Numbered from the stretch's first letter, positions 24,787-41,861 are shown. The stretch: 64,000 bases of DNA from Spirochaetia bacterium (GCA_963675665.1 OY776510.1:3488001-3552000); one strand, 5' to 3'. Notes: a model not told the origin generated them from the sequence alone. Translations and numbers: made by a program.

Positions 24787-24856
24787 TGCAATTTCTGTCC
24801 TGGTTGGGATTATTTAAGGAAGAGCCCGCCTTCCGTGGCGGGCATGGAGATAAGAA

Positions 24857-25921
24857 ATGAATAATAAAGTATTATATTATCCAAGTATAGAATTTTATGA
24901 TGTTAGTTGGGTTAAAGCATCTCTATGTATTTGGGACAAAGTTTATAGAATTGTGCCTTCAACTTATATTCCCAATGATTGTTTAGAAATAGAAACATTT
25001 ATTAATCATGGACTAGTTGATAATATTAGTATTGAACAAAATGATTTATCAGAAACAGCTGATAATTTTATCGATTTTATTGAAAAAATACCAGGATTAC
25101 CTGCTGGCATTGAAGGATATGAAAAGATCAATTTGCACAAAGAAAAAGTAGATGATCGTATTCTGCCCATATTAGAAGCGATATCAGACAAATTTGAATT
25201 AGAATCATGGATACCTCTATCAAGACCGATAGTAAACGCTTACATGCTTTTTTTTGCAGAAACTATTTCAAGAAGAAGAAAAATGCCAAAGATTACTGAT
25301 AATGTCGACATGTATACAATAATGCATTATTTTATGGCAGATGGTAATATTGATGAATCAATAGGTTCACATGAACATAAAGAATATAGCATTAATCTTG
25401 TATTAGAAAATATTATACCAGCAGATATTAATACCGTATCACCTGAGATTATACTTAATTTCAGAGAAGCAACAGAAGATATTAGAGACACTTTTAGAAA
25501 CTATGTATATAATTTGATTGATGAAATAAAGTCTATTGAAAGTGAATCTTATGCAAAAGAAATAATAACTGATAGTATTTCTGATATTTCTAAAAATAAT
25601 TCATCGCAAAAAAGAGTTATTAAAGAATTAGGTATGAATTTCACTACATCATTTCTTTCAATAGGTATACCTACTACAATTTCGGCAATTGCACTTTTTT
25701 CAAATACAAATAATATATTTTCCATAAACGAAATAATGGGTTCAGTTTTCATTGGAGCAGTTGCGTCTATTGCAGATACAGTCCGCTCAAGAAGAAAAGA
25801 TTGGAGTTCAGAGGAATCACTTTTTATGCATGAATTAGATAGAAGATTTGATACTTATAGGAATTTCAGGCCAACAACTAATCGACATTTTAATATTTTA
25901 GAAGAATATATTAATGATTAA
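24857..25921 (+). CDS. Cassette 2, gene 1: DUF6236-like protein with hydrophobic C-terminal segments
   Basis: N-terminal VLYYPSIEF...W.K...WDKVYRIVP pattern recalled from DUF6236; family not verified. Confidence 0.6.
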   Translation: MNNKVLYYPSIEFYDVSWVKASLCIWDKVYRIVPSTYIPNDCLEIETFINHGLVDNISIEQNDLSETADNFIDFIEKIPGLPAGIEGYEKINLHKEKVDDRILPILEAISDKFELESWIPLSRPIVNAYMLFFAETISRRRKMPKITDNVDMYTIMHYFMADGNIDESIGSHEHKEYSINLVLENIIPADINTVSPEIILNFREATEDIRDTFRNYVYNLIDEIKSIESESYAKEIITDSISDISKNNSSQKRVIKELGMNFTTSFLSIGIPTTISAIALFSNTNNIFSINEIMGSVFIGAVASIADTVRSRRKDWSSEESLFMHELDRRFDTYRNFRPTTNRHFNILEEYIND

Positions 25922-25952
25922 TAAAGTAAATAAAACTTAAAAGGAGCATAGC

Positions 25953-27515
25953 ATGTCAGAAAAACTAATTCTAGATGCATTAATTACAAGAGAAGATTTT
26001 GAAATCTCTGACGAATTAGATATACCCACAACAGATATGAAAGATACTTTGTCAATTCAAGATTTAGAATATAATTCTTTTTTCTATCGTGCATTAAGAA
26101 AGCCTGATTTTCAAAGAGAGACTAGTGATTGGACTATTGAAAAAACATTTCAATTTATTGAAAGTTTTATTAATGGAGATTTAATACCTGCAGTTATTTT
26201 GTGGAAAAATAGTTCAGGTTTAATATTTGTAATAGATGGTTCTCATCGAATCAGCGCTTTATCTTCATGGATAAATAACGACTATGGGGATGGTCGTTAT
26301 TCAATAGAATTTTATAATAATCAAATTTCAAACCAACAGAAAAAACAAGCCCAAACAGCAAGAACAATAATTGATGCTACAATAGGTTCATATGATTCAT
26401 ATAAAAATATTGATACAAATCTAAAAGAAGAAAATTTAACGAAATATAAAAAGGCGATGCAGTTAGGTTCTACAGCTATTCAAATTCAATGGGTAAAAGG
26501 TGATTCTAAAAAAGCAGAGGAGTCATTTTTTAAGATAAATGAAAAAGCTTCTCCAATTGATAATACTGAAAAGAAGATTATTAAAAATAGAAACAAACCA
26601 ATTGGGATAGCTGCAAGAGCAATCATGAGAAGTGGTAGTGGATATAGATATTGGTCCAAATTTGATAATAAAAGAAAAAATGAAGTTGAGCAGCTTGCAA
26701 AAGACATAAATGATATGCTTTTCTTACCAGAATATACAACCCCTATTAAAAGTTTAGATTTACCGATTGGCGGAAAGATCTTATCGAATAAAGGTTTAGC
26801 ACTAGTTCATGATACAATAATGATATGTAATAATTTAAATGAAAAAGAATTAGAGAGAATAGTGGATGACAATGATGGGATAAATACTGTTAAATACTTA
26901 AAACGAACAAAAAGACTTTTATTGAGGATTAATAGTCAACATCCAGGCTCTTTAGGATTACATCCAGTTATATATTTTTATTCAATACGTGGTGTTCATA
27001 AAGTAGCCTCATATTATGGAATACTTGATTTTATTAATTATATAGAAGAAACGAATAGGTACAACGATTTTATAGAAATACGCGAGAAGTTTGAAAGAAT
27101 CTTATTAGATTATGAATTCCTGATACAACAAATAGTACGTCATGATAGGCAATCTATAAATGGATATAAAAATATTAAGGAATATTATTCTTTAATTATG
27201 GACTATTTATTACAAGGTAAAGAGATTGAGGAAGTAATTAAAATGATTCTTGATACTAAGAAGTTTTCATATCTTTCTATTGCAATTACTAAAATGGAAG
27301 AAACTAAAGCTAAAAAATTCTCAAGAGATAAAAAATCGATAATTTTTATCAAGGAAGGTTTAAAAACAATTCCTAAATGTGGTATTTGTGGCGGGGCGTT
27401 ACATTCAAAATCGATATCAATTGATCATATAGAAAGAAAACAGGATGGTGGAATTTCAATGATAGATAATGGCCAATTATCACATCCATATTGTAATACA
27501 ACATATAAAAATTGA
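25953..27515 (+). CDS. Cassette 2, gene 2: DUF262 (ParB-like) plus HNH nuclease, GmrSD-like
   Basis: KPDFQRE..W, VIDGSHRISAL, FFKIN; C-terminal CGICGG..SIDHI..NGQLSHPYCN. Confidence 0.85.
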   Translation: MSEKLILDALITREDFEISDELDIPTTDMKDTLSIQDLEYNSFFYRALRKPDFQRETSDWTIEKTFQFIESFINGDLIPAVILWKNSSGLIFVIDGSHRISALSSWINNDYGDGRYSIEFYNNQISNQQKKQAQTARTIIDATIGSYDSYKNIDTNLKEENLTKYKKAMQLGSTAIQIQWVKGDSKKAEESFFKINEKASPIDNTEKKIIKNRNKPIGIAARAIMRSGSGYRYWSKFDNKRKNEVEQLAKDINDMLFLPEYTTPIKSLDLPIGGKILSNKGLALVHDTIMICNNLNEKELERIVDDNDGINTVKYLKRTKRLLLRINSQHPGSLGLHPVIYFYSIRGVHKVASYYGILDFINYIEETNRYNDFIEIREKFERILLDYEFLIQQIVRHDRQSINGYKNIKEYYSLIMDYLLQGKEIEEVIKMILDTKKFSYLSIAITKMEETKAKKFSRDKKSIIFIKEGLKTIPKCGICGGALHSKSISIDHIERKQDGGISMIDNGQLSHPYCNTTYKN

Positions 27516-27658
27516 TAATTAATAAAAAATGTATTGGAATCATGAATTATCTACATGATTAATTTGAAAAGGAGTTAAGCATATAGAAAATGATTATAGG
27601 GTCAAATACATCCATGTATTTGACAATTAAGTATTAAAGCAACCATGAAAGAAACGGC

Positions 27659-27806
27659 ATCTAACAAGCAAATATGTAGCTCCGGCCATTCGGCCTGCGC
27701 CCAAATTGAAGCTAACGGAGAAGCGGAGCAGGACAGTCGGGTTTGCTCATTGACAAAACACTCCTTTGGCGGCGCTTCAACTTTACATATTCGCGGAACG
27801 TTATGT
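27659..27806 (+). repeat. attC-like site 2 (148 bp)
   Basis: ATCTAAC-aa-GCAAATATGTA ... TACATATTCGC-ggaac-GTTATGT. Confidence 0.85.
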
Positions 27807-27955
27807 GCAATTACCCCGCCCCTTTTTTGGGAGAAGAGATTGTATATAGGCAAACTGGCATCCGTGCCAGTTTGGAAATGTATAAACACACATCGCATCG
27901 CATAAAAAGGTGAGATTATAGAATTAAAATTTATTAGTATGCATAACAAGGAAGC

Positions 27956-28837
27956 ATGATAATGGAATGGTCTGAAAGAATGAATATGGCAATCGATTAT
28001 ATTGAAGATAATATTAAAAATGAGATACTGATTTCAGAAGTAGCAAATATAGCCAATTGTTCATCATTTCATTTTCAGCGAATGTTTTATGCAATCATTG
28101 GGATTACGCCTGCTGAATATATCAGACGACGAAGATTGACTTTAGCAGCCTCTGATCTCGCTGCTGGGAATGAAAAAGTCATTGATATTGCTCTGAAATA
28201 TGGTTATGAATCACCAAATGCGTTTACTAGAGCATTCCGGAATATGCATGGTATTAATCCACGAGAAGTGCGCAGCTCAGAGGTTAAATTATCGGCATAT
28301 AATCGTGTTTCTTTTCATATCGAAATCAAAGGAGGAAATGATATGGATTATAAAATAGTCGAAAAACCGTCTTTTGAATTGGTAGGGAAGAGTAAAAACT
28401 TTACACATGAAAACTTTTTTAAAGAAGGCCCTAAATTCTGGAAAGAATACGTATGTACAGATGAATACCAAGAGCTTTGGAATTTGACAAATGGTAGATG
28501 GGGAGAGGTGACTGATTCCCCTCTGATGTCTGTCTATTTGCCTAGTGAAAAAAATGATGAATCATTTATTGATATTCTTGGTGTTGAAAAGTCAGATAGT
28601 TTTAATAATCATAAATTTGAACTATTTCAGATACCAGCTGCTACCTATGCAGAATTTAATTGTACTTATCAGACTTCTGCAAAAATGAATAAATTTATTT
28701 ACGGTGAATGGCTTCCTTCAACCGGTTATGAAAGGGATACTCAAAAAGCTGATATTGCAGCTTATTTCCCAGTAGCTTTTATGTCAACAAAAGGGATGGG
28801 GGTACGATGGTGGATACCAGTGGTTAAGAGAAAGTGA
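27956..28837 (+). CDS. Cassette 3: AraC-family regulator with GyrI-like effector domain
   Basis: MEWSERMN.AIDYIE, SSFHFQRMF, EYIRRRRLTLAA, KYGYESPNAFTRAF. Confidence 0.92.
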   Translation: MIMEWSERMNMAIDYIEDNIKNEILISEVANIANCSSFHFQRMFYAIIGITPAEYIRRRRLTLAASDLAAGNEKVIDIALKYGYESPNAFTRAFRNMHGINPREVRSSEVKLSAYNRVSFHIEIKGGNDMDYKIVEKPSFELVGKSKNFTHENFFKEGPKFWKEYVCTDEYQELWNLTNGRWGEVTDSPLMSVYLPSEKNDESFIDILGVEKSDSFNNHKFELFQIPAATYAEFNCTYQTSAKMNKFIYGEWLPSTGYERDTQKADIAAYFPVAFMSTKGMGVRWWIPVVKRK

Positions 28838-28909
28838 AAGAGATTTCAAGCAAAACATCGTGTTTTGCTTGAAGAATTCTCTTAAGAAAGACCGGGGCGG
28901 GGAAACTGC

Positions 28910-29001
28910 ATCTAACAAGGGTTACACGCTCCGGCCATTCGGCCTGCGGGCTGCGCCACATTCGGCTGCGCCGAACGTCGTGTAACCCTGGAACGTTATA
29001 C
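28910..29001 (+). repeat. attC-like site 3 (92 bp)
   Basis: ATCTAAC-a-AGGGTTACACG ... CGTGTAACCCT-ggaac-GTTATAC; nearly identical to site 4. Confidence 0.9.
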
Positions 29002-29079
29002 AAAATGTTCCCGCTAAGAGGAAGACGCCCGGACCTCCGGCCGACGGGCTAAAAGAGAGTTTAAGATTAAGGAATCAAG

Positions 29080-29859
29080 ATGGAAAAAGAGTTTACCGGA
29101 AATGAAATTGGATTAAATGGAGAAGCTCAAATAAAGATAGCTATCAAAACTATCTCTGATCTTGGTGGGAAAGCAGAAATGAAGGATTTATATTCTGCTT
29201 TAGAGAATGAAATGCGAGGAAAGAAACTCTCCAATCAAGGAAAGGCAAGTTTCAGATTTTTTGTGAATAAGGTCGCTGTAAAAGCAGGATTGATTTATCC
29301 GTATGACAAAAATAATCCGGGGTGGATGTTGACTCCGGCTGGTAAAGAATATCTGAAGAATGAAGAGATTAATGAAATAACAGTAAATACGGATACAAAT
29401 GAAGAAGAGGTAACTTTATCTAATTCGGCAAGAGGTTTAGCTTTTGAATTATACGCTCATGATTTTCTAAAGACATTATATCCAAGTTTTGTGTGGCATC
29501 ATCAGGGGCTTTATAAAACAACTGAAAGAGGTTTGGATTTTATAGGAGATAAACTTGGGGATCAAAATTCAGATGTTCGAACCATTGGTGTTCAGGTTAA
29601 GTTTCATAAAGAGAAAAATTCGCCAACTCAGATTGAATGGTTAAAATTTCTATCTGGTTGTTTTGCGCGCAGAGTAGATTTAGCAATATTTATCACAACA
29701 GGTAGATTGTCGAGTGCTCAATATCGAGAGGCGAGGGAATCAAATGTTATAGTTATTCAAGGAAAGGATGAGATAACAAGGATTGCAAAACAGAATAATT
29801 TAAAGAAGTTTGATTTATTTGGAAGTGAAGAGGAAGGAGAGGCTTCAGAAGAAGGATGA
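29080..29859 (+). CDS. Cassette 4: Mrr-like restriction endonuclease
   Basis: N-terminal winged helix (GWMLTPAGKEYL), then FE, GLD, GVQVK, IFITTG..S Mrr_cat motifs. Confidence 0.82.
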   Translation: MEKEFTGNEIGLNGEAQIKIAIKTISDLGGKAEMKDLYSALENEMRGKKLSNQGKASFRFFVNKVAVKAGLIYPYDKNNPGWMLTPAGKEYLKNEEINEITVNTDTNEEEVTLSNSARGLAFELYAHDFLKTLYPSFVWHHQGLYKTTERGLDFIGDKLGDQNSDVRTIGVQVKFHKEKNSPTQIEWLKFLSGCFARRVDLAIFITTGRLSSAQYREARESNVIVIQGKDEITRIAKQNNLKKFDLFGSEEEGEASEEG

Positions 29860-29921
29860 AGAGTTAAGATGTTCAAGCCTTGACTCCGCCGTGCGGCTTG
29901 AACGAAGAGCGGGAACACTTC

Positions 29922-30013
29922 GTATAACAAGGGTTACACGCTCCGGCAATTCGGCCTGCGGGCTGCGCCACATTCGGTTGCGCCGAACGTCGTGTAACCC
30001 TGGAACGTTAGCT
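29922..30013 (+). repeat. attC-like site 4 (92 bp)
   Basis: GTATAAC ... GTTAGCT; body differs from site 3 at two positions. Confidence 0.9.
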
Positions 30014-30105
30014 GAAATGCCCCGCTAAGAGGAGAACGCCCGGACCTCCGGCCGACGGGCTAAACTGAATAGGAAATTAATAATAAATTAAAATATGGAG
30101 TTAGT

Positions 30106-30954
30106 ATGAAGAAGTTATCACTAGTATTTGTATTTCTAATAGCTGTGAGTAGTTTATATGCAGAGGATATAGCTTTAATTGAAGATAATGTGCTTGATTT
30201 ATTTAATAGTTACAATCCTCAATATAAAACAATTGGTCCAAAAATCTTGAATATCCCTGAAGGGCAAATTGATTTTTACAAAATGAAAATAGATACTGAT
30301 GAAAGTGATCTAAAATTCTTAGTAATTAAAGATAAGTACATTATAGGGGTCTTGCAAAATGTTAATGGTGAAGATCAACTTTTAATTGATGCAAATGGTG
30401 ATAATTTATTAGATTATTATTCTCAAGAATTAACAATACCTTATTGGGTTGTAGCATCAGAGTGTAATAATCACAGTAATAATGAATATAATTTGGATAT
30501 TTATTTTGATGAAGCTATTGAGATTTTTAATGGAGAGGTGAACCCATATTCATCCGGTTTGCATTATCAGTTTACGCAAAAATTATTAGTTTCAGTTTCA
30601 GCACCGGAAACTCCTAATCGAGATATAATTTACGCTTTATATGATTATTACAATCATGGCGACCAATATCCATGGGTTGCTTTACAAATAATTAATTATA
30701 TAAGCAAGACTACTTACGATAGATATAAAAAGGATAATCTATTATTTTACTTACATACTATGGAATCCTTAATTAATTTTGGATATTCAGATAGAGCGAT
30801 ACCATTGATGGAAGAGTTAGTAAAGAAATACCCAGAATTTATTCCAGGGTTAGTGTATAGATGGCAATTAGAAAATGATGCTTCGAAAAAGGAGAAATAT
30901 TATAAAGATCTAAAAACCAATTATCCAAATCATTGGATAGTGAAATTAATTTAA
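30106..30954 (+). CDS. Cassette 5: exported hypothetical protein with TPR-like C-terminus
   Basis: Signal peptide MKKLSLVFVFLIAVSSLYA; GGAG RBS; helical repeats ..KYP.. / ..NYPNHW. Confidence 0.75.
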   Translation: MKKLSLVFVFLIAVSSLYAEDIALIEDNVLDLFNSYNPQYKTIGPKILNIPEGQIDFYKMKIDTDESDLKFLVIKDKYIIGVLQNVNGEDQLLIDANGDNLLDYYSQELTIPYWVVASECNNHSNNEYNLDIYFDEAIEIFNGEVNPYSSGLHYQFTQKLLVSVSAPETPNRDIIYALYDYYNHGDQYPWVALQIINYISKTTYDRYKKDNLLFYLHTMESLINFGYSDRAIPLMEELVKKYPEFIPGLVYRWQLENDASKKEKYYKDLKTNYPNHWIVKLI

Positions 30955-31034
30955 TGAAATATTATAGATTTGAAAACTTTGGTAGCCAGTCCTTGACTCC
31001 GTCGCACGGACTGGTTTAAGAGCGGGGACACTTC

Positions 31035-31342
31035 AGCTAACAAGGGAATATAAGCAGCGCCCATTCGGGCTTGGCCTTCGGCACATTTTTATTTTTCTGA
31101 ACATAGGCTTTATCATCGGCATTTAACACATGAAATGCAGTAGTCAACACCTTTGACACGGTTCTGGCGGAGACATTCGCTGATCGCTCATTCCAGAACC
31201 GCGCCAACCCTCGAAGACTCGGGACGGTTTCGCTACTGATTTCGTCGTTAAATGCACGGGATTTTTCAGTTTCGGGAAAATGATGGGTGTGATAGAATCA
31301 ATGAGAAAAATAAAAACGTCTTATATTCCCGGGGCGTTATGC
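31035..31342 (+). repeat. attC-like site 5, giant (308 bp), with nested inner site at 31121-31253
   Basis: AGCTAAC-aa-GGGAATATAAG ... CTTATATTCCC-ggggc-GTTATGC; TTTTTATTTTTCT/AGAAAAATAAAAA arm; inner ATTTAAC...GTTAAAT. Confidence 0.8.
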
Positions 31343-31576
31343 GACATTCTTGGAGGAAGAAGATAGAAACATTGTTTGGGATGATTTTGATAGTTTTTAG
31401 CATTTTACTCATTAAAAATTATTTTATTTCATATGGAAGGGCTATAAATAAATTCCGTGATATAATGTTATTTACAGTTTTAAATGCTGTAATTGAATTC
31501 TCAAGCAAGATCAACCAACTTGTTTTTAGGAACTTTACGCAGAAATTTAAGATTGAATTAAAAATAAAGGACGAAC

Positions 31577-32901: not shown

Positions 32902-32967
32902 GAAAGTTTTGGTTTTTGGTGATTCTATATAGAATAGTCATTCATGGCTATTCTTGTAAGATTTATC

Positions 32968-32996: not shown

Positions 32997-33002
32997 GAGA
33001 GT

Positions 33003-33624: not shown

Positions 33625-33684
33625 TTCTACACTAAAGCCCAAAAGACATCCTTGTCTTTTGGGGATCAAATCACCAAAACCTTC

Positions 33685-33779: not shown

Positions 33780-33912
33780 GCAATGAGCCCGACAAGAGGA
33801 AGACGCCCGGACCTCCGGCCGACGGGCTAAGAGGTAAATATATGGAATATGAAAAATTATTTTTTGATAAATTAAGTCAAAGCTACAATAATTCTTCCTA
33901 TTAGGAGAGCGA

Positions 33913-34632: not shown

Positions 34633-34715
34633 GAACCGAAGTTTTGGTATTTTTTAAGATCAATGAAGAATCCAGACCTAACTCCGTTGAACGGTCTGGA
34701 TGTTGGGCTCAAAGC

Positions 34716-35016
34716 ACATAACAAGGGAATATAAGCAGCGCCCGTACGGGCTTGGCCTTCGGCACATTTTTATTTTTCTGAAGTGAGTGAAGATTATCGG
34801 AATTTAACAAGTCAAATGCAGTTGTCGCCGTCTATTGTCACGGTTTTAGCAGAGACGTTTCGCGCTGATCGCGCTACACTCTAAAACCGCGCCAATTCCT
34901 TTCGCTTCGCTCCAGGATCGAGGGCGCAACTGATTTAGTCGTTAAATGCACGGGATTTTTCAGTTTCGGGAAAATGATGGGTGTGATAGAATCAATGAGA
35001 AAAATAAAAACGTCTT
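34716..35016 (+). repeat. attC-like site 8 (giant type), truncated by IS3
   Basis: Homologous to 31035-31342; ends at AAAAACGTCTT where the IS begins; inner site at 34802-34947. Confidence 0.82.
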
Positions 35017-35046
35017 TGAACCGCCCCGGGAATCCCGGAGACTGTT

Positions 35047-35955
35047 TTAGTTGAGTCCGACAACTCTGGCCGAATCTCTAACACTTTCATAATACATCAT
35101 CTCAAACTCTTTTGGGGGAATATTTCCAATCGGTTCAAGAATTCTTCGGTTGTTAAACCAGTCCACCCATTTCAGAGTTTCATATTCTACTTCATCTATA
35201 GATTTCCAGGGACCTTTTCTCCAGATCACCTCCGCTTTATATAAACCGTTTATTGTTTCCGCCATTGCATTATCATATGAATCTCCAACACTTCCGACAG
35301 AAGGTTCAATGCCTTCTTCAGCCAATCTCTCAGAATATTTGATAGACAGGTACTGGCTGCCGCGGTCGCTGTGATGAATCAATTTATCTTCCGGCGCTCG
35401 AGCAAAGATTGCCTGCTCCAAAGCATCCAGAGTTAGTTCGGCACTCATTGATCGCGATACGCGCCAACCGACGATCATCCGTGAAAACACATCTGTTACA
35501 AAGGCTACATATACAAATCCTCGCCAGGTTGCCACGTAGGTGAAATCTGCAATCCATAACTCGTTCGGCCGGGTAGATTTGAATTCCCGATTTACTAAAT
35601 CCAACGGCCTGTCTGTTTTCTTATCAGGAATCGTCGTTTTAATACCCTTGCCGCGAATAACTCCTCTAAGACCAAGATCCTTCATGAGTCGAGCTACAGT
35701 GCATCTTGCGACATTAAAACCCTCACGCTTCAGTTGTCTCCAGACTTTTCGGACTCCGTAAACTTTGTAGTTATCATCCCAGACACGCTTAACTTCCGAC
35801 TTCAATTTTTTATCAGAGTGATAGCGTGCAGGAGCCTTACTTGGATCTTTTTCTCTGGATTTCATTTCGTAATAAAAAGACGGAGCAATCGGTATTACTT
35901 TACAGATTGACTCGACTCCATAATCTTCTCTATTTTTATCAATGAAATTAATCAT
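35047..35955 (-). CDS. IS3 OrfB transposase (DDE)
   Basis: [37 protein letters not shown]. Confidence 0.95.
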
Positions 35956-36275
35956 TTCCTCTGTGGGCGGTCGAGCTCCGCCTGTGCGAAATATGCTGAA
36001 GCCTTTCTGAGTATCTCGTTAGCTTTTCTTAATTCCCTGACTTCTCGCTCCAGTTCTTTAATTCTGGTTTTCTCATCAATAGTCAGACCTTCTCGCTTTT
36101 CTGAATCCATTTCCGCTTGACGAACCCATCGGCGCAATGTTTCCGGGGTGCAGCCAATCTTGTTTGCTATTGATTCTATGGCTCCCCATTGGGAGCCGTG
36201 CTATTCAGTAGTCTCAAATACCAACCGTACTGAACGTTCTTTTACTTCTTTTGAATACCGGGTTCTTTTGTCCAT
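35952..36275 (-). pseudogene. IS3 OrfA with premature TAG
   Basis: [48 protein letters not shown]; stop at 36201-36203. Confidence 0.85.
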
Positions 36276-36325
36276 AACATAATCCTCTCATATAATTATG
36301 TCTCTGGTAAACCCGGGGCGGTTCA

Positions 36326-36654
36326 ACCATCAGAACAGGAATATGATGGAGATTTTGTAGAGTTTGCGTATCCGATAAATTACAGGAAGCGGTTCGTAAA
36401 TAATCGAGGCTTTATCAGTTTTAATGGAACACGCTATTTTGTCGGGAATCCATTTGGAGGATACAATATAGGAGTTCAGCAGAATGAAGAAGGGCAACTA
36501 AATGTCTGGTTTGGAGACTCTCTTCTTGGATATTTTAACCAGGAAAGTTTGTTGCTGGTGCCTGAAAAGCAGTATACACTAATGAAAAGAAAAAGGAGAA
36601 AAGTGTTACCGATGTCGTGACACAAATCCGTTACCTATGTCGTGAAACCGGACC
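36326..36654 (+). mobile_element. IS481-family remnant (3' end of transposase and right end)
   Basis: Frame ending ..NVWFG...RKVLPMS* followed by tandem GTTACC.ATGTCGTGA repeats typical of IS481 ends. Confidence 0.7.
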
Positions 36655-36693
36655 CCGCTGTCGCCTTCCATGGCTCATTAGAAAGAATTAAGA

Positions 36694-36722
36694 TTGATAA
36701 AACTTAAAAGGTGTTGTACAAT
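36694..36722 (+). promoter_or_regulatory. TA promoter
   Basis: TTGATA-17bp-TACAAT overlapping TGTACA/TGTACG motifs; ATG 7 nt downstream. Confidence 0.6.
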
Positions 36723-36728
36723 GTACGT

Positions 36729-37121
36729 ATGAGTATATTGGTAGATGCAAACATATATTTAGCAGTAATTCTCGATGAGCCGGAAAAAAGCAAAATAATA
36801 GAATTAACTCAGGAAGATGATCTGATATCACCGGTTGTTTTACCTTTCGAAGTGGGAAACGCACTATCTGCAATGTATAAAAGAAATAGGTTAGATAAAA
36901 GTCAAATAATTGATTGTTATTCAATATTTCAGAAAATACCAGTGCGTTTGATTGATGTTAATATTCAAAACTCATTAGTAATAGCAGCAGATTATGGAAT
37001 ATATGCTTACGATGCATATTATTTGGAGATAGCAAAACGATACAAATGCAGTTTGTTGAGTTTGGATAATAGAATGAAAGAAGTGGCTAAAGATTTAGGA
37101 GTCCACTTATTGGAGGTCTGA
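36729..37121 (+). CDS. Cassette 9: VapC PIN-domain toxin
   Basis: ILVDANI, FEVGNAL, YAYDAYYL, LLSLD. Confidence 0.92.
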   Translation: MSILVDANIYLAVILDEPEKSKIIELTQEDDLISPVVLPFEVGNALSAMYKRNRLDKSQIIDCYSIFQKIPVRLIDVNIQNSLVIAADYGIYAYDAYYLEIAKRYKCSLLSLDNRMKEVAKDLGVHLLEV

Positions 37122-37346
37122 ATGAGAGTTTTTAATTATTCAGAAGCTAGGCAGAATTTTGCTTCAATATTGAATATGGCAGCAGAAGAAGATGTCATAA
37201 TAGCAAAGAAAGATGGAAGCAGATTTAAGATTGTACCGCTTACTAAAAATGAAAGTAAATCCCCATTTGACGTTCCAGGAATTAAAAGTAAAGTTACAAC
37301 CAAAGAAATCCTTGATGTTATTAGAGAAACTCGAGAGTTATCGTAG
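37122..37346 (+). CDS. Cassette 9: Phd/YefM-like antitoxin
   Basis: YSEARQNFASIL...VII.KKDG. Confidence 0.88.
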   Translation: MRVFNYSEARQNFASILNMAAEEDVIIAKKDGSRFKIVPLTKNESKSPFDVPGIKSKVTTKEILDVIRETRELS

Positions 37347-37367
37347 AGAAGAAAGCCGTAATACTTC

Positions 37368-37462
37368 AGATAACAGGGGCTATGTGCTTCGTCGCTATGC
37401 GCTCCTCGGGCTGCGCCACATACGGCATTCGCCGTACGTCGTATATCCGCGGAACGTTAGAC
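37368..37462 (+). repeat. attC-like site 9 (95 bp, arms mismatched)
   Basis: AGATAAC-a-GGGGCTATGTG ... CGTATATCCGC-ggaac-GTTAGAC; body like site 7. Confidence 0.82.
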
Positions 37463-37496
37463 GAAAGATATAAAGGTCGACGGGCTTGAATGAGAT

Positions 37497-38306
37497 ATGA
37501 ATATTGAAAAGGTTTTAAGGAATTATATAAAAATAGAGAATAGAGTTATCCATTCGGGTGAACAGTTTGTTATAATTACATTATGTTTAATACTGGTATT
37601 TTCATGTAACAAAAAGATAGAAAGCAGAAATAATGAATTATTAAAAGTATTGTTTATAGGAAATAGCTACACATTCAATAATAACCTTCCCGATCAAGTT
37701 AAAAAAAATATTTACTGATCAAAACAAGGCTATTTCTATTGAGATAAAATCATTTACTCCCGGTGGAGCAAGACTCCAAGATCATCTAAATTCTATTTTC
37801 ACTTTGGATACAATAAGAAATGGAAATTGGGATATAATAATTATACAAGGGCATAGCTTGGGCCTCTAAATAATCCTATTGGTTTTAAGGATGCTGCTTT
37901 AACTCTCATAAAAATCGCTAAAGATAGTGGTGCTGAAGTCTATTTATTTGAAACATGGTCTCGTGCTTTGGGTGAACCAGAGTACAGTGAAGAATGGTCA
38001 GGGCGAAATCATGCTGCAATGCAGAAACTCATCAGCAAAAAATATACTGATATTGCAATAGTCACTGATGCAATAGTTATTCCGATAGGGAGAATATGGC
38101 AAAGACTAAGGATAGAGATCCCAAAAATTGAATTATATTCAACAGACGGTTCTCATCCTACACCCTGTGGAAGTTATTTGGCGGCTTGTGTTATTTATAA
38201 ATATCTGTTCGATGAAGATCCTACTGACATTAAATACTATCCAAATGGAATAAAGAAATCTGATGCTAAGAAATTACGGGCTGCTGCTGAAAATATTATT
38301 CTTTAA
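37497..38306 (+). pseudogene. Cassette 10: SGNH-hydrolase-like protein, frameshifted
   Basis: VLFIGNSYT, WDIIIIQ, LFETWSR and DGSHPT..GSYLAA spread over different frames. Confidence 0.8.
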
Positions 38307-38559
38307 CGAAAAAGAAATAAGTTTGGAGAATATTATGACCGAGATACTATATACGATTAATATTTAATTTCCTTAGAGATGGAAAAAACTTATTGTCCAG
38401 GCATGTGAAAAAAATATGAAGATGAAAATGATTCATTGTAGCTGGTTGAAGAGTGATGGTTTTAAGCAGATAGTCAGTTATAAAAAGGGGTGCTATAATA
38501 ATCAAAGAAACCAGACCTTGACATCGCCGTGCGGTCTGTTTGAAGAGCCAAAACTCTTG

Positions 38560-38636
38560 CTATAACAGGGGCTATGTGCTCAGCCCATTCGGCCTTCGGG
38601 CTGCGCCGAACGTCGTGTAACCCTGGAACGATAGGA
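38560..38636 (+). repeat. attC-like site 10 (chimeric; right core has lost TT)
   Basis: Left arm of site-7 type, right arm of site-3 type; ends GGAACG-ATAGGAA instead of GTTATAGGAA. Confidence 0.78.
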
Positions 38637-38660
38637 ACTAGTTTTTAAGAGATTATTACG

Positions 38661-39155
38661 ATGAAAGAGAAGTACCAAATCCAAATAGCCGATAAGAATG
38701 ACCAAGAATTTCTTTATGAGATGCTTTACCAATCAATTTATGTAGAGCCAGATTCACCGAAACCTGATAGACAAATAATTGATATTCCAGAAATATCAAA
38801 ATATGTCGCAAACTGGGGAAAGCAAGGAGATTACGCTTTAATTGCTTTAGATGAAAATGGAACTAAAATAGGTGCAGTTTGGCTCCGATACTTTGATGTA
38901 AATAACAAGGGATATGGATTCATTAACGATCAGATACCTGAGATAGGTATCGCTGTAGAAGAAAAGAGCCGTGGGAATGGTATTGGGTCATTCTTATTAA
39001 ATGAAATATTGAAAAGAACGAAAAATGAAATAGAATCAATTTCATTAAGTGTTCAACCGAATAATCCAGCAATGGATTTATATTCTCGATTCGGTTTCTA
39101 TGAATGTGGAAAAGAAGGGGACTCTGTAATAATGAGATATGATAACGAGGCATGA
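38661..39155 (+). CDS. Cassette 11: GNAT acetyltransferase
   Basis: GAVWLR, GYGF..PEIGIAV, RGNGIG, SLSVQPNNPAMDLY.RFGF. Confidence 0.92.
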   Translation: MKEKYQIQIADKNDQEFLYEMLYQSIYVEPDSPKPDRQIIDIPEISKYVANWGKQGDYALIALDENGTKIGAVWLRYFDVNNKGYGFINDQIPEIGIAVEEKSRGNGIGSFLLNEILKRTKNEIESISLSVQPNNPAMDLYSRFGFYECGKEGDSVIMRYDNEA

Positions 39156-39165
39156 AAACTACTTC

Positions 39166-39281
39166 CTATAACAGTGAGTATATGCTACGTTCGGCTATCG
39201 CGCCTCACTTGGGCTGCGCCACATTTTTTCTTTTTCCTGCTCCGCTTCGCCCGCTTATCGGGAAAAGAAAAAACGTTATAT
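39166..39281 (+). repeat. attC-like site 11 (right inner arm deleted)
   Basis: CTATAAC ... GGGCTGCGCCACA TTTTTTCTTTT/AAAAGAAAAAA c GTTATAT; no partner for the left arm. Confidence 0.72.
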
Positions 39282-39302
39282 GCAATGCATAACGAGAAAG
39301 AA

Positions 39303-39800
39303 ATGATTGTATTAGAAAAATTTGAAAAAGATAACATTCCCCAATTACTATCTTGGCTTGAAGACACGGATGCAAAATTCCTTTTACAGTTTGCTGGACC
39401 CATATATTTATTCCCATTGAATGAAAAACAACTCATGGAAACTTTGGATTCAAAAGATTATTTATTGCTTCGGGCAATCGATACCAAAGCCGGGAATATA
39501 ATCGGTCATTGCCAATTTATGAGAGTTGATAAAAATAAACAACAAGCATCCATTGGTAGAATCCTTATTAATCCTAATTTCAGAGGGAAAGGATTTGGAG
39601 TACAACTCATAAATGAAATGAAAATCTTTGCCAAAGATAAATTAAATCTATTGAAGATTGATTTACGTGTTTTTGATTTCAACACTGCAGCTTTACATTG
39701 TTATTCTAAAGCTGGGTTTGTTAAAACCTCTGTACATGAAAACCATATTCCTGAGTTCAATGAAACTTGGAAAATTATTACAATGGAATGTTCTCTCTGA
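39303..39800 (+). CDS. Cassette 12: GNAT (RimJ-like) acetyltransferase
   Basis: RILINPNFRGKGFG, LRVFDFNTAALHCY.KAGF; real start MIVLEKF. Confidence 0.9.
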   Translation: MIVLEKFEKDNIPQLLSWLEDTDAKFLLQFAGPIYLFPLNEKQLMETLDSKDYLLLRAIDTKAGNIIGHCQFMRVDKNKQQASIGRILINPNFRGKGFGVQLINEMKIFAKDKLNLLKIDLRVFDFNTAALHCYSKAGFVKTSVHENHIPEFNETWKIITMECSL

Positions 39801-39824
39801 CCCTCTATTCTCGTTGGTCAATGA

Positions 39825-39971
39825 ATCTAACAAGCGAATATGCGGTTCCGATTCGCTCCACTCAAATTGCTTCTTTGATAATCTCTGATAAAAGTATGCT
39901 ATACTTTTCCCAGATATTATTAAGCTCTCAAGTGGCCGAAGCACCTTCGCATATTCCGCAGAACGTTATAT
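39825..39971 (+). repeat. attC-like site 12 (147 bp)
   Basis: ATCTAAC-aa-GCGAATATGCG ... CGCATATTCCGC-agaac-GTTATAT. Confidence 0.85.
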
Positions 39972-40080
39972 GACATATTCTTGAGATGGATATAATATAC
40001 AGAAAATAAAAGAGGAGTACTTAATGTCTACAATATTATTTGATTTCTTTAGATAAACATAAAAATATAAGGAGTCAATA

Positions 40081-40827
40081 TTGTCGTATTTTAATTTTCA
40101 AGGAAAGAAAATATTTTATTCAGTTAAAGGAGAAGGTCCTCTTCTGATAGTTTTACCAGGTAACACAGCTACATCTGCTGCACATGAGCATGAGTTAAAT
40201 TATTTTTCAGATAAGTATTGCACTGTTTCCCTAGATTTTCTGGGAACTGGAAAATCAGACAGAATGAAGCAATGGGATAGCGGTTGGTGGGAAGCCTGTA
40301 GTAACCAAGTTAAAGCATTAGTTGAGCATCTTAATTATAAAGAGGCGATTCTTCTTGGCATAAGTGGCGGTGCTATTATAGCAATTTCTGCCGCTATAAA
40401 TCATTCTGAATATGTTAAAGCAGTTGTTGCAGATAGCTTTTCATTGCATTTTACGGAAGAAATGTATAAAAACAATGTCTTAAATGAAAGATCTAATTTA
40501 TCTGAAGAACAACAAATGTTCTGGTCATCAATGCATGGTTCAGATTGGAAAGATGTTATAACTGCTGATACAGAAATGATTGGAATGGTTGTTAAGGAAG
40601 GAGGATCTTGTATCAAGAGCCAACCAGAAAAGATAAAATGTCCTGTTTTGCTGACATATTCAGAAGAAGATAGTTTTCTTCCAAATGTAAAAGAAATTGC
40701 TGCAGATTTAGAAAAGAAGATTAGCAATTGTGAGATTAAAATATTTTCAAATGGAGATCATCCTCTAATTTGGACAAATCCTACGGATTTTTTTCAATCC
40801 GTTGATAGATTTCTATTAAAAATATAA
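40081..40827 (+). CDS. Cassette 13: alpha/beta hydrolase
   Basis: LDFLGTGKS, GISGG nucleophile elbow, ED, GDH. Confidence 0.9.
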   Translation: MSYFNFQGKKIFYSVKGEGPLLIVLPGNTATSAAHEHELNYFSDKYCTVSLDFLGTGKSDRMKQWDSGWWEACSNQVKALVEHLNYKEAILLGISGGAIIAISAAINHSEYVKAVVADSFSLHFTEEMYKNNVLNERSNLSEEQQMFWSSMHGSDWKDVITADTEMIGMVVKEGGSCIKSQPEKIKCPVLLTYSEEDSFLPNVKEIAADLEKKISNCEIKIFSNGDHPLIWTNPTDFFQSVDRFLLKI

Positions 40828-40879
40828 AGAAAATTTGTGGGCTATTTCGATGGCCCGCATTCAATAACAAGAATAAGTC

Positions 40880-41051
40880 ACATAACAGCGTGGATCAAGG
40901 GCCTTGCCGTCCCTGGCAAGGATAAAGAAAAGTCGACAAAACGCACACATTGTAATAATTTACTATTATGAAGCTTTTTGATTGGGATGAAAAGAAGAAT
41001 TCAGAATTAAGAAAAACGCGTGATATAAACGGAAGATTGGTTGAATCAAGC
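40880..41051 (+). pseudogene. Truncated site 13 fused to a remnant BrnT-like toxin cassette
   Basis: ACATAAC at 40880 without right half; ATG 40968 gives MKLFDWDEKKNSELRKTRDI, then deleted. Confidence 0.62.
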
Positions 41052-41145
41052 AGATAACAGGGGCTATTTGCATCGTCGCTATGCGCTCCTCGGGCTGTGC
41101 CACATACGGTTGCGCCGTACGTCACATAACCTCGGAACGTTATGC
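41052..41145 (+). repeat. attC-like site 14 (94 bp)
   Basis: AGATAAC-a-GGGGCTATTTG ... CACATAACCTC-ggaac-GTTATGC; site-7 family. Confidence 0.87.
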
Positions 41146-41197
41146 GAAATCTCGAACCTAAAAAAAGAAGATGCTTGCCATCCTTTGCAAGCAAAGA

Positions 41198-41230
41198 TTG
41201 ACGGAGTGTAGTAATTACTATATAATTACT
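41198..41230 (+). promoter_or_regulatory. mazEF promoter/operator
   Basis: TTGACG-17bp-TATAAT with AGTAATTA...TAATTACT palindrome. Confidence 0.8.
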
Positions 41231-41246
41231 TTAGTTGAGGTATAAT

Positions 41247-41495
41247 ATGTTAATTTCAGTGGTTCCTATAGGCAATTCAAAAGGAATTCGGATTCCTAAG
41301 AGCATTTTGCAGCAATTAAATATTGAAGAAAAAGTCGAATTGGAAGTTCATAATACAGAAATATTGATACGGCCAATTAAGAAAAAGCCGAGAGAAGGAT
41401 GGTCCGAAGAGTTTATGAAAATGCATCAAAATGGTGATGATTCTTCACTTGTGGACAATTTAACAGGTCAGGATGATTTTGAATGGGAATGGTAA
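41247..41495 (+). CDS. mazE: Cassette 15: AbrB/MazE antitoxin
   Basis: IGNSKGIRIPK, PREGW, FEWEW. Confidence 0.9.
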   Translation: MLISVVPIGNSKGIRIPKSILQQLNIEEKVELEVHNTEILIRPIKKKPREGWSEEFMKMHQNGDDSSLVDNLTGQDDFEWEW

Positions 41496-41812
41496 TCCAT
41501 CAATACGAAGTGTATTTGATAAACTTGGATCCGACTGTTGGTCATGAAATAAAAAAGACAAGACCTTGTTTAGTTATTTCACCAAACGAGATGAATGAAT
41601 CGATCCAGACTATTATAATCGCTCCAATGACAACGAAATCACATCCATATCCAACTCGAGTACCAATTAAATTTGAAAAGAAAGATGGATGGATTGTTTT
41701 AGATCAATTAAGAACAATTGATAGAAAGAGATTAATTAAAAAAATTGGAAAGATAAATAAAAAAGAAGTTGAACTCGTCAAGAATGTACTCCAGGAAATG
41801 TTAATAGATTAA
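41483..41812 (+). CDS. mazF: Cassette 15: PemK/MazF toxin
   Basis: LDPTVGHEIKKTRPCLVISP, APMTT, LDQLRTIDRKRL. Confidence 0.94.
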   Translation: MGMVIHQYEVYLINLDPTVGHEIKKTRPCLVISPNEMNESIQTIIIAPMTTKSHPYPTRVPIKFEKKDGWIVLDQLRTIDRKRLIKKIGKINKKEVELVKNVLQEMLID

Positions 41813-41861
41813 AGCCAATCAACATCCTTGTTGCTTGGCTTTGAAGAAGGTTTGTGACTAC

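What the first reader, a model, noticed from the sequence alone, without database searches (positions are those of the whole stretch)
24824..41842. Cassette ORFs are bracketed by hairpins reading CA-NGGA-NG (CsrA consensus) on the antisense strand
Seen: hairpins with unrelated stems but the same top-strand apex C(A/T/G)-TCCN-TG at 24824, 27601, 27851, 33638, 36663, 40902 and 41811 (variants at 28845, 32931, 41172), just inside cassette ends. On the minus strand they read ACAAGGAUGU, ACAUGGAUGU, GCACGGAUGC, CCACGGAAGG, CCAUGGAAGG and CCAGGGACGG. Known: the CsrA/RsmA SELEX consensus is RUACARGGAUGU with GGA in a hairpin loop, and spirochaetes encode CsrA. Inference: an antisense RNA (or bottom-strand ssDNA) of the cassettes is bound by CsrA or a similar protein, hinting at an RNA step in cassette regulation or genesis. 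REP-like elements are the alternative explanation.
Basis: partly seen in the sequence, partly recalled or inferred. Interest (0 to 1): 0.8.

Follow-up and report, generated by a model that had tools for sequence, protein, structure and literature searches.

The report
Loop-conserved hairpins flanking integron attC sites
Short hairpins with one conserved loop sit on both sides of the recombination sites of this gene-cassette array, always the same way round, and the same hairpin recurs in other bacterial phyla and in a known but unexplained repeat family, so it is probably a docking site for an unidentified factor.

Summary
Six hairpins with the top-strand apex C-N-TCC-N-T-G lie in window 24300-42000, none the other way round; 500 shuffles gave a mean of 0.008. 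The site at 36663 has only a 3-bp stem.

The hairpins flank the attC sites, not the ORFs. They are not special to this array:
- Same-orientation hairpins occur in four related genomes (14 to 0).
- In a Desulfitobacterium integron (Bacillota) they sit 23-24 nt after and 28-29 nt before attC. There 16 of 26 genome matches lie in the array.
- In this genome the same apex also builds the dispersed Rfam TD-2 repeat.

Between co-directional genes the GGA face is antisense 60 times and sense 0 times. It follows gene direction, not replication.

REP/RAYT elements and intrinsic terminators are rejected.

CsrA binding fits the motif, and csrA is present. It stays untested: no RNA data exist and stem mismatches show no strand signal. 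CsrA binding was already proposed in print for the related TwoAYGGAY RNAs (PMC4333381). What looks new is the attC-flanking, cross-phylum arrangement.

The parts
23201..24265 (+). Integron integrase gene intI, in the same orientation as the cassettes. It carries an N-terminal HARP-like segment.
   Evidence: Pfam Phage_integrase 7.8e-42, Phage_int_SAM_4 7.5e-12, HARP 2.3e-6 at residues 15-48. Orthologues at 53-63% identity in five related genomes (G009, G007, G006, G003, G002), plus a partial match at 60% in G010.
24824..24843 (+). 5' cassette hairpin GCCCGCC-TTCCGT-GGCGGGC. It starts 44 nt after the G of the preceding attC R' and ends 13 nt before the ORF start at 24857.
   Evidence: Near-identical modules occur in array B, array C and relative L092.
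27601..27624 (+). 3' cassette hairpin GTCAAATACA-TCCA-TGTATTTGAC. It ends 38 nt before R'' of the next attC.
   Evidence: The same stem family occurs in arrays B and C and in L092 and L096.
27851..27874 (+). 5' cassette hairpin CAAACTGGCA-TCCG-TGCCAGTTTG. It starts 51 nt after the G of R'.
   Evidence: It folds as a separate hairpin beside attC on both strands.
28845..28873 (+). 3' cassette hairpin, variant loop TCG (13-bp stem). It starts 8 nt after the ORF stop and ends 40 nt before R''.
   Evidence: The same TCG variant occurs at a 5' position in Desulfitobacterium.
32931..32954 (+). 5' cassette hairpin, variant loop (ATTCAT). It starts 36 nt after the G of R'.
33638..33663 (+). 3' cassette hairpin CCCAAAAGACA-TCCT-TGTCTTTTGGG. 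It ends 25 nt before R''.
36663..36674 (+). GCC-TTCCAT-GGC. Sequence motif only, with a 3-bp stem, beside an IS fragment. Not counted as a member.
   Evidence: absent from both hairpin lists.
40902..40921 (+). Hairpin CCTTGCC-GTCCCT-GGCAAGG inside a degenerate junction. No canonical R' or R'' lies at the usual distance.
41172..41193 (+). 5' hairpin of the mazEF cassette (loop CATCCTTT). It starts 33 nt after the G of R' and lies upstream of a TTGACG-17-TATAAT promoter-like site.
   Evidence: An intact copy with apex CA-TCCT-TG is in G002 (L096 14104-14125).
41811..41842 (+). 3' hairpin of the mazEF cassette, apex ACA-TCCT-TGT. It overlaps the mazF stop and ends 25 nt before R''.
   Evidence: A copy with loop TCCA is in G002 (L096 position 14754).
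24688..24789 (+). attC site. Others lie at about 27658-27806, 28909-29000, 29921-30012, 31034-31342, 32760-32900, 33684-33780, 34715-35010 (cut by IS3), 37367-37463, 38559-38640, 39165-39282, 39824-39970, 41051-41146 and 41866-41955.
   Evidence: R'' TAACA and R' GTTA with inverted L boxes, read. Self and cross matches.
29027..29049 (+). Alternative 5' cassette hairpin GCCCG-GACCTCCGGCCGA-CGGGC, 31-32 nt after the G of R'. Also at 30038-30060 and 33805-33827.
   Evidence: Of 15 matches to the 14-letter core in the genome, 14 are the full hairpin and all 14 lie in arrays A, B and C in cassette sense.
29871..29903 (+). Alternative 3' cassette hairpin with a 14-15-nt loop (TTGACTCCGYCGYRC in most copies), 18-25 nt before R''. 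Also at 30986-31014, 34670-34701 and 38512-38538.
   Evidence: The pattern scan found 7 copies in the genome, all in the arrays and in cassette sense; 34670-34701 has a variant 14-nt loop and comes.

Best explanation
What it is (shown). Each hairpin is part of the repeat unit around an attC site, in the order hairpin - attC - hairpin. This unit is carried by cassettes of one integron lineage found in Spirochaetota and Bacillota. The stems vary and keep pairing. The loop is fixed and strand-specific: N-TCC-N-T on the cassette-sense strand, which reads C-A-N-GGA-N-G on the bottom strand. It is the same hairpin class as the AYGGAY loops of the TD-2 and TwoAYGGAY candidate RNAs.

How it most likely works (inferred). 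The hairpin is a docking site read in single-stranded form on its GGA face. That face is on the bottom strand, the strand of attC that is known to fold for recombination. CsrA is the only such protein known, and every host checked encodes it.

The face could be presented in two ways. One is bottom-strand DNA next to the folded attC; this fits the fixed 23-29 nt spacing. The other is antisense RNA; this fits what CsrA is known to bind. My odds: GGA face read at all, about 0.4; CsrA on an antisense RNA specifically, about 0.2.
For: 1. The letters that stay fixed across phyla are A(-2), G, G, A inside a C-G closed loop, and the two N positions vary freely. Loops seen are TCCA, TCCG, TCCT, TCCC, GTCCAT, GTCCGT, TTCCGT and GTCCT.
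2. The same apex recurs in three unrelated element types. These are the attC flanks here and in Desulfitobacterium, TD-2 repeats, and TwoAYGGAY, whose alignment rows read AAACAUGGAUGUUU (supplement of PMC2864571). That points to one widely conserved ligand.
3. All 6 hairpin-bearing hosts tested encode CsrA.
4. Position is fixed relative to attC, not to the ORFs. In Desulfitobacterium the 5' hairpins start 23-24 nt after R' (5 of 5) and the 3' hairpins end 28-29 nt before R'' (4 of 4), while distances to start and stop codons vary.
5. In that genome 16 of 26 matches to CCGTCCRTGG lie in the 32-kb array, all forward. The reversed-pattern control gave 8.
6. Rfam models TD-2 and TwoAYGGAY on the GGA strand.
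Against: 1. The GGA face is antisense to every neighbouring gene: 60 to 0 between co-directional genes, and 47 to 1 in an unbiased loop census. An RNA reading therefore needs antisense transcripts for which there is no evidence; no RNA run is listed.
2. The orientation follows gene direction, not replication. It is antisense in 19 of 19 lagging-strand and 41 of 41 leading-strand gene pairs. That fits a sense-RNA role, or orientation fixed by how the elements insert.
3. Stem mismatches give no strand signal (G.U 11, A.C 10 on the GGA strand).
4. The other two array-only hairpin modules show CCUCC and CUCC on the sense strand. That equally suggests anti-Shine-Dalgarno loops on mRNA.
5. Four Bacillota loci with 4.8-10 kb downstream of a related intI carry no such hairpin (with lengths). 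A CsrA-bearing phylum is therefore not sufficient (csrA not checked in these four hosts).
6. CsrA binding to DNA is not established.
7. In two T. denticola-group genomes that are rich in TD-2, the 40 kb downstream of an IntI-like gene showed none (I did not verify that stretch as an array).
Confidence: 0.4

Rival explanations
1. Sense-strand RNA element. The hairpins act on the cassette mRNA, with UCC or CCUCC loops on the transcript. They would be intercistronic boundary structures: the 3' one protecting the upstream cistron, and the 5' one protecting the downstream cistron or masking its ribosome-binding site by pairing with GGA(G). In this view the resemblance to CsrA sites on the other strand follows simply from Shine-Dalgarno and anti-Shine-Dalgarno complementarity.
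For: - Orientation tracks transcription, not replication.
- Sense transcripts through co-directional junctions are the default expectation.
- In TD elements the GC-rich hairpin sits 10-17 nt upstream of AGGAGG and the start codon of the next gene. This matches the '5' regulatory configuration' reported for TD-1 with only 2 exceptions in 29 instances (supplement of PMC1950547).
- All three 5' and 3' cassette hairpin types expose UCC, CUCC or CCUCC on the sense strand.
- A few stems have G.T on the top strand (Desulfitobacterium left-flank hairpins; window 32931).
Against: - Position is fixed relative to attC, not to the start codon or the Shine-Dalgarno site.
- One 5' hairpin lies upstream of the cassette's own promoter-like site (41172).
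- The conserved U two positions after UCC has no role in pairing with GGAGG.
- No factor is known that reads N-UCC-N-U loops.
- The loop-to-SD linker at 24824 is only 2 nt, too short for a pseudoknot (inference).
- There is no G.U excess on the sense strand overall.
Confidence: 0.3
2. Structural part of the attC repeat unit with no loop-specific ligand. Small flanking hairpins would insulate the folding attC, for example by keeping the flanking single-stranded stretches short or by helping cruciform extrusion. The loop would be conserved only because the roughly 200-nt unit is young or homogenised.
For: - Spacers next to the hairpins are also conserved within a genome, for example CGAAACCGTACGCA and CTCTGAGT in Desulfitobacterium and the leader and trailer sequences shared by arrays A, B and C. 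The hairpins are therefore inherited with their surroundings.
- Both strands fold into three independent hairpins.
- There is no strand signal in the mismatches.
Against: - The loop is the same in Spirochaetota and Bacillota units whose stems and spacers are unrelated.
- The same loop occurs in TD-2 and TwoAYGGAY elements, which have no attC.
- The stems change with compensation while the loop does not.
Confidence: 0.15
3. Intrinsic transcription terminators or insulators at cassette borders.
For: They lie at the ends of transcription units. Some stems are GC-rich, 7-9 bp long, with 4-6 nt loops.
Against: No U-tract follows on either strand. For 13 array hairpins the mean T count in the 10 nt after the stem was 3.5 on the GGA strand and 3.3 on the sense strand. 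A terminator also needs no fixed loop sequence.
Confidence: 0.05
4. REP-like elements spread by a RAYT transposase.
For: They are multi-copy, palindromic, intergenic elements. TwoAYGGAY lies next to REP arrays in Pseudomonas (preprint 10.64898/2026.09.22.753630, section 8 read).
Against: No Y1 transposase (PF01797) is found in this one-contig genome, rated 96% complete, while the same search hit 6 of 14 control genomes. The stems differ between copies while the loop is fixed, which is the reverse of REPs. Copies are direct, never inverted doublets.
Confidence: 0.02

Closest known systems
TD-2 / TD-1 candidate RNA motifs (Rfam RF03162; Weinberg et al. 2007, PMC1950547)
   Same: The hairpin apex is the same (C-AYGGAW-G or ACA-NGGA-TGT). 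This genome has 33 TD-2 matches. A GC-rich hairpin of the (C)CCGCC type occurs both in TD-2 and at cassette 5' ends. The strand ambiguity was already noted by the authors: TD-1 partly equals the reverse complement of TD-2.
   Different: The window hairpins are solo. No TD-2 match lies in 23000-45000 even at E up to 10. They flank attC sites instead of the GAAGTTTG...CAAACTTC middle hairpin. TD-2 was described only in T. denticola. Here it is found in a second order.
TwoAYGGAY RNA motif (Rfam RF01731; Weinberg 2010, PMC2864571; proposed as a CsrA-binding sRNA by Gardner and Eldai 2015, PMC4333381)
   Same: AYGGAY terminal loops on variable stems. The family is multi-copy and its function unknown. 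The CsrA match has already been pointed out in print.
   Different: This genome has no match to the model. There is no common basal stem. The attC-flanking position is new; none of my searches found it described.
CsrA/RsmA high-affinity sites (GGA in a hairpin loop, as in CsrB/RsmZ and 5' leaders)
   Same: The apex CA-NGGA-NG, with ACA/UGU closing pairs in four window hairpins. csrA is present.
   Different: The sites lie on the strand antisense to all the genes. No second site lies within the usual dimer span. No transcript or binding has been shown.
Species-specific attC repeat units of sedentary chromosomal integrons (such as the Vibrio cholerae repeats; recalled)
   Same: A long, homogeneous repeat unit around each recombination site in a large chromosomal array.
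   Different: Here the unit carries two extra hairpins outside R'' and R'. Their strand-specific loop is shared across phyla.
REP/BIME elements
   Same: Intergenic, palindromic and multi-copy.
   Different: No RAYT gene. The loop, not the stem, is conserved. Orientation is uniform.

Membership tests
CsrA/RsmA binding site | GGA in the loop of a short hairpin, within A(N)GGA / CANGGANG | tested here: met
   Met on the minus strand at 24824, 27601, 27851, 33638, 40902 and 41811. The consensus itself is recalled or quoted from the finding, not taken from a call.
CsrA/RsmA binding site | Lies on an expressed RNA (an mRNA leader or an sRNA) | tested here: inconclusive
   The GGA face is antisense to all cassette ORFs, and to the flanking genes genome-wide (60 to 0). 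No RNA run is listed.
CsrA/RsmA binding site | A second GGA site within reach of the dimer (tens of nt; often the Shine-Dalgarno site) | tested here: not met
   Partner hairpins lie across the attC, about 150-250 nt away. The minus strand has no Shine-Dalgarno site of a gene there.
CsrA/RsmA binding site | csrA gene in the host | tested here: met
   PF02599 scores 89 bits in G000 and is found in 5 of 5 other hairpin-bearing hosts.
CsrA/RsmA binding site | Binding by the protein | not testable with these tools
   Needs EMSA, RIP or CLIP.
TD-2 RNA (RF03162) | Three-hairpin architecture scoring above the gathering threshold | tested here: not met
   No TD-2 match in window 23000-45000 at E up to 10. 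Elsewhere in the genome, 18 matches exceed the cut-off.
TD-2 RNA (RF03162) | AYGGAW or NGGA terminal loops | tested here: met
   (alignment to the model consensus).
TwoAYGGAY RNA (RF01731) | Two AYGGAY hairpins rising from a common basal stem | tested here: not met
   0 matches in the genome at E up to 0.01. One sub-threshold match of 29.5 bits overlapped a TD-2 tandem.
REP / RAYT | A cognate Y1 (RAYT) transposase, conserved stem sequence and inverted doublets | tested here: not met
   PF01797 is absent. Stems vary and copies are direct.
Intrinsic terminator | A U-tract directly after the stem | tested here: not met
   Mean of 3.3-3.5 T in the 10 nt after the stem on either strand for 13 array hairpins.
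Integron attC site | R''/L''...L'/R' boxes with GTT at the crossover | tested here: not met
   The hairpins lie outside R'' and R'. They flank attC and are not attC.

The most novel reading that the evidence does not exclude
The unit hairpin - attC - hairpin is a self-contained junction module, and hairpin-bounded modules of this kind can move into the gaps between genes.

The dispersed TD elements have the same three-part layout: hairpin, central palindrome, hairpin. They sit between a stop codon or Shine-Dalgarno site and the next gene. GGAG lies within 8 nt upstream of 25 of 54 copies, against a 1.4% background. In several cases the upstream ORF ends in the element's own TGA.

If an attC-bearing version inserts in the same way on both sides of a gene, it would turn that gene into an excisable cassette. 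That would be a concrete route to the unsolved origin of integron cassettes. The conserved loop would be the handle of whatever protein moves or reads the module.
Probability: 0.07. Interest if true: 0.9.

Novelty: new variant of a known kind. Interest (0 to 1): 0.62.

Why it matters
Integron attC sites are thought to be the only conserved non-coding part of a cassette. Here a second strand-specific element sits at fixed distance on both sides of attC, in integrons of two phyla. It carries the same loop as two long-known but unexplained repeat families, TD-2 and TwoAYGGAY.

This ties three orphan observations to one probable ligand and makes them testable together. The tests could use a cultured Desulfitobacterium isolate and standard integron recombination assays.

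If the ligand is CsrA, a global regulator would be linked to cassette arrays. If the hairpins act in recombination, the definition of the recombination site in this lineage needs extending. If they mark the ends of a mobile junction module, they bear on how cassettes arise.

Tried and rejected
- RNA evidence: no RNA holder is listed for window 24001-34000 (one search was one base too long).
- Laying contigs of X1 and X3: these are metagenome contigs that break at the attC repeats. The alternative joints, such as 31331 to 24788, are explained by paralogous junctions in array C. They add nothing.
- TD-1 model: my guess RF03161 was a different family (S15-Flavobacteria). TD-1 itself was therefore not scanned.
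- Regex detection of attC genome-wide was neither sensitive nor specific. I used BLAST of the window's attC sites instead, plus manual mapping.
- G.U versus A.C asymmetry as a way to pick the functional strand: 11 versus 10, no signal.
- U-tract test for terminators: negative on both strands.
- Empty-site comparison for TD elements in the five same-genus genomes: the element and one flank are multi-copy, so no orthologous empty site could be picked.
- T. denticola-group genomes: the first IntI search was too strict. After relaxing it, the 40 kb downstream of the IntI-like genes of G080 and G030 held no TCC-sense hairpin; the only hits lay in the first ~800 nt of the G080 locus, upstream of intI, where one search places three TD-2 matches. 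I did not verify that those 40 kb are cassette arrays.
- Metagenome scan with one 16-mer: 121 matches. Most are GC-rich and probably chance or coding. By eye about 7 of the 19 low-GC hits show R' or R'' on the expected side. The simple mirror control did not separate the sides for R' (7 versus 6) and separated them only weakly for R'' (5 versus 1). This is anecdotal only.
- Host pattern: hairpins were seen only in loci from Bacillota and Spirochaetota among the 80 IntI loci. However, four Bacillota loci with long flanks have none, so this is no test of CsrA dependence.
- Complex prediction, structure prediction and the large protein searches were not used, because the question is about nucleic acid.

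Full report
**Setting.** The window is G000:C1:3488001-3552000 of a 5.15-Mb, one-contig genome with 43% G+C. Its closest IntI relative in public genomes is a Spirochaetaceae MAG.

An integron integrase gene lies at 23201-24265 on the plus strand (Pfam). All cassettes follow it on the same strand, from about 24.3 to 41.96 kb. An IS3 element sits inside one attC at about 35.0-36.3 kb; its frameshift pseudoknot is the only Rfam gathering-level hit in the window. An IS66 element closes the array at 42109-44341. I mapped 14 attC sites by their R'' TAACA and R' GTTA boxes. By GC skew the array lies close to the replication terminus.

**The observation.** It also recovers the variants at 28845 (loop TCG), 32931 (ATTCAT) and 41172 (CATCCTTT). 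The site at 36663 has only a 3-bp stem next to an IS fragment, and I drop it.

In 24300-42000, 6 of the 8 top-strand occurrences of C.TCC.TG sit in a hairpin (at least 6 of 8 flanking pairs Watson-Crick). None of the 4 bottom-strand-type occurrences does. In 500 dinucleotide-preserving shuffles the mean was 0.008 and the maximum 1.

The hairpins take two positions. Some start 33-51 nt after the G of R' of the preceding attC, at the 5' end of a cassette. The others end 25-40 nt before R'' of the next attC, at the 3' end of a cassette. They therefore bracket the attC sites. Folding a junction (27590-27885) on either strand gives three separate hairpins: flank, attC, flank.

Junctions without this hairpin often carry one of two other array-only hairpins. 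One is a 5' module, GCCCG-GACCTCCGGCCGA-CGGGC, with 14 copies in the genome. The other is a 3' module with a 14-15-nt loop, TTGACTCCGYCGYRC in most copies; a pattern scan found 7 copies, and 34670 is a variant found. All copies lie in cassette arrays and in cassette sense.

**Not special to this array.** Genome-wide, 107 of 2510 occurrences of CA.GGA.G (both strands) sit in hairpins. Six are in this array. Three and four are in two further cassette arrays on the minus strand, at about 3.90-3.93 Mb and 4.42-4.52 Mb. The other 94 lie elsewhere.

Most of those 94 belong to a dispersed three-hairpin repeat that Rfam recognises as TD-2 (RF03162). A scan of 10 sample loci gave 14 TD-2 matches, 7 above the gathering score. 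The whole genome gave 33 matches at E up to 0.01, 18 above the cut-off. The window's array has no full TD-2 copy even at E up to 10, and TwoAYGGAY does not match the genome.

TD-2 was described from Treponema denticola only, as a possible non-coding RNA. Its partner TD-1 is partly its reverse complement and lies in a '5' regulatory configuration' (PMC1950547, passages and supplement table). Here TD-2 is found in 7 of the 11 genomes of this organism's order. In a 151-genome sample of the phylum, the only other hits were in one other family of the same class, with genome sizes typical of the T. denticola group.

**Orientation.** I used crude gene calls: ORFs of at least 90 aa, picked greedily. 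Among hairpins lying between co-directional genes, the GGA face is antisense to both neighbours in 60 cases and sense in 0. The 9 'sense' cases all lie inside ORFs and have only 6-7 of 8 pairs.

I also ran a census that does not presuppose the motif: perfect stems of at least 9 bp between co-directional genes. It gives 47 loops with TCC on the sense strand, 1 with GGA, and 259 others.

The rule follows transcription, not replication. It holds in 41 of 41 leading-strand and 19 of 19 lagging-strand gene pairs. Between divergent or convergent genes the two replication strands are used 11 and 10 times. In those 21 cases the GGA face is antisense to the nearer gene in 15.

Read in the sense direction, a full TD element runs as follows: stop codon or GGAGG, then a long AT-rich hairpin, then the GAAGTTTG...CAAACTTC hairpin, then a GC-rich hairpin, then a U-rich stretch, then AGGAGG and the start of the next gene. 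GGAG lies within 8 nt upstream of 25 of 54 long hairpins, against a background of 1.4%. Several upstream ORFs end in the element's own TGA. This looks like insertion just after a Shine-Dalgarno site. If so, the orientation rule could come from the way the element inserts and need not reflect an RNA function.

**Relatives and other phyla.** Downstream of the orthologous intI in four related genomes (two of the same genus, two of another genus; 53-63% identity), I found 2, 2, 5 and 5 hairpins with TCC on the cassette strand and none with GGA. The mazEF cassette with both of its hairpins recurs in G002.

Among 80 loci around IntI relatives from public genomes (873 kb), 14 such hairpins have TCC on the intI strand and 2 have GGA; those 2 lie upstream of intI. 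Eight of the 14 are in Desulfitobacterium sp. Sab5, a member of the Bacillota.

In that genome the loops are GTCCAT or GTCCGT, with one TCCA and one TCG. The 5' hairpins start 23-24 nt after R' in 5 of 5 cases, including the one after attI. The 3' hairpins end 28-29 nt before R'' in 4 of 4 cases. Of 8 attC sites in 10 kb, 5 have a left-flank hairpin and 5 a right-flank hairpin. Distances to the ORF ends vary.

The pattern CCGTCCRTGG occurs 26 times in that 4.3-Mb genome. Sixteen lie within the 32-kb array, all on the cassette strand. The reversed control pattern occurs 8 times. So in that host the hairpin is an integron feature, not a genome-wide repeat.

A metagenome scan with one 16-mer gave further junctions of the same layout, among many GC-rich chance hits. 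I treat these as anecdotal.

**What it is not.**
- REP/RAYT: no Y1 transposase is present, while 6 of 14 control genomes gave a hit. In addition the loop, not the stem, is conserved.
- Intrinsic terminators: there is no U-tract on either strand.
- attC itself: the hairpins lie outside the R boxes.

**Which face is read?** For the GGA face:
- The invariant letters are A(-2), G, G, A in a C-G closed loop, with free N positions. This is the pattern of CsrA sites.
- The same apex appears in three unrelated element types, in taxa that have CsrA. csrA is present here and in all five other hosts checked.
- TwoAYGGAY was proposed as a CsrA-binding RNA on just this ground (PMC4333381, passage read).
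- The bottom strand is also the strand of attC that folds for recombination (established knowledge). The fixed spacing to attC fits a role next to it.

For the UCC face:
- Sense transcripts are the ones certain to exist.
- TD-1 and the layout look like leaders of the downstream gene.
- The other two cassette modules expose CCUCC or CUCC.

Neither face is decided by stem mismatches (G.U 11, A.C 10 on the GGA strand). No RNA data are available. I put the GGA-face reading at about 0.4 (CsrA on antisense RNA at about 0.2), the sense-mRNA reading at about 0.3, and a purely structural role at about 0.15.

**Literature.** I searched for TwoAYGGAY (13 papers), TD-1/TD-2, integron + Treponema + attC + gene cassettes (27 papers), CsrA + integron + attC (2 unrelated papers by their listing), group IIC-attC / cassette formation, and phrases for sequences next to attC together with 'hairpin'.

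I read passages of PMC3607928 and PMC6557892; neither mentions hairpins. The latter reports antisense promoter activity in some Treponema-type cassettes. I read section 8 of the 2026 preprint on TwoAYGGAY, which mentions neither CsrA nor integrons. bioRxiv supplements are closed and could hold more. Within these searches I found no description of loop-conserved hairpins flanking attC.

I traced that idea to PMC4333381.

**Verdict.** The hairpins are a conserved, strand-specific part of the attC repeat unit in one integron lineage across two phyla, and they belong to the AYGGAY hairpin class. The CsrA reading is compatible and partly anticipated in print, but it is unproven.

Noticed in passing
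window 29027-29049, 30038-30060, 33805-33827; G000 arrays at 3.916 Mb and 4.48-4.52 Mb: A 5' cassette hairpin, GCCCG-GACCTCCGGCCGA-CGGGC, with the anti-Shine-Dalgarno sequence ACCUCC in its loop. It lies 31-32 nt after the G of attC R'. The genome has 14 copies, all in cassette arrays and in cassette sense. The outer stem pairs vary with compensation.
   Followed up: partly
window 29871-29903, 30986-31014, 34670-34701, 38512-38538: A 3' cassette hairpin with varying stems and a conserved 14-15-nt loop (TTGACTCCGYCGYRC in most copies), 18-25 nt before attC R''. A pattern scan found 7 copies in the genome, all in the arrays; 34670-34701 has a variant 14-nt loop. No Rfam match.
   Followed up: partly
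window 31034-31342 and 34715-35010: Unusually long (about 300 nt) attC-like units. An internal segment of about 130 nt recurs at about 25 places in the large minus-strand array at G000 4.42-4.52 Mb. I did not examine its content.
   Followed up: no
window 23201-23440 (IntI residues 1-80): The integrase has an extra N-terminal segment that matches the HARP domain (PF07443, 27.5 bits, cut-off 25). As I recall, that domain binds forked DNA in annealing helicases. Many IntI relatives across phyla align from residues 1-13 onwards, so the segment is lineage-wide.
   Followed up: partly
G000 1652349-1652894, 2973077-2973369, 836249-836456: Tandem arrays of 3-5 TD-2 units with a period of about 101-113 nt. 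Each unit has two GGA-loop hairpins, so up to about 10 CsrA-type loops lie in 550 nt. If transcribed on that strand this would resemble a CsrB-like sponge. No such RNA is known in spirochaetes (recalled).
   Followed up: partly
G000 genome-wide, e.g. 2400640-2400900 and 4968400-4968660: TD elements sit just after a GGAGG and end with another AGGAGG in front of the next start codon. Some upstream ORFs terminate in the element's TGA. This suggests insertion at Shine-Dalgarno sites of tight operon junctions.
   Followed up: partly
G000 3.90-3.93 Mb and 4.42-4.52 Mb: Two more cassette arrays on the minus strand. The larger one, about 100 kb, lies next to a divergent IntI-like gene at 4525380-4526309. 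Another pair of tyrosine recombinase genes lies at 3.982-3.987 Mb.
   Followed up: partly
window as a whole: The cumulative GC skew peaks at about 3.54 Mb, so this array lies at the replication terminus. In all three arrays the cassettes point along the leading strand.
   Followed up: partly
window 24857-29859 and 36711-41812: Cassette cargo includes a GmrSD-N/HNH nuclease, an Mrr-type nuclease, an AraC-Cass2 regulator, two GNAT acetyltransferases, an alpha/beta hydrolase, and PIN/Phd and MazE/MazF pairs. A DUF4886 gene at about 37.5-38.3 kb is broken into several frames.
   Followed up: no
G080:C1:1455410-1455807 (L103): In a T. denticola-group genome, three TD-2 copies lie in tandem directly upstream of the IntI-like gene.
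   Followed up: no
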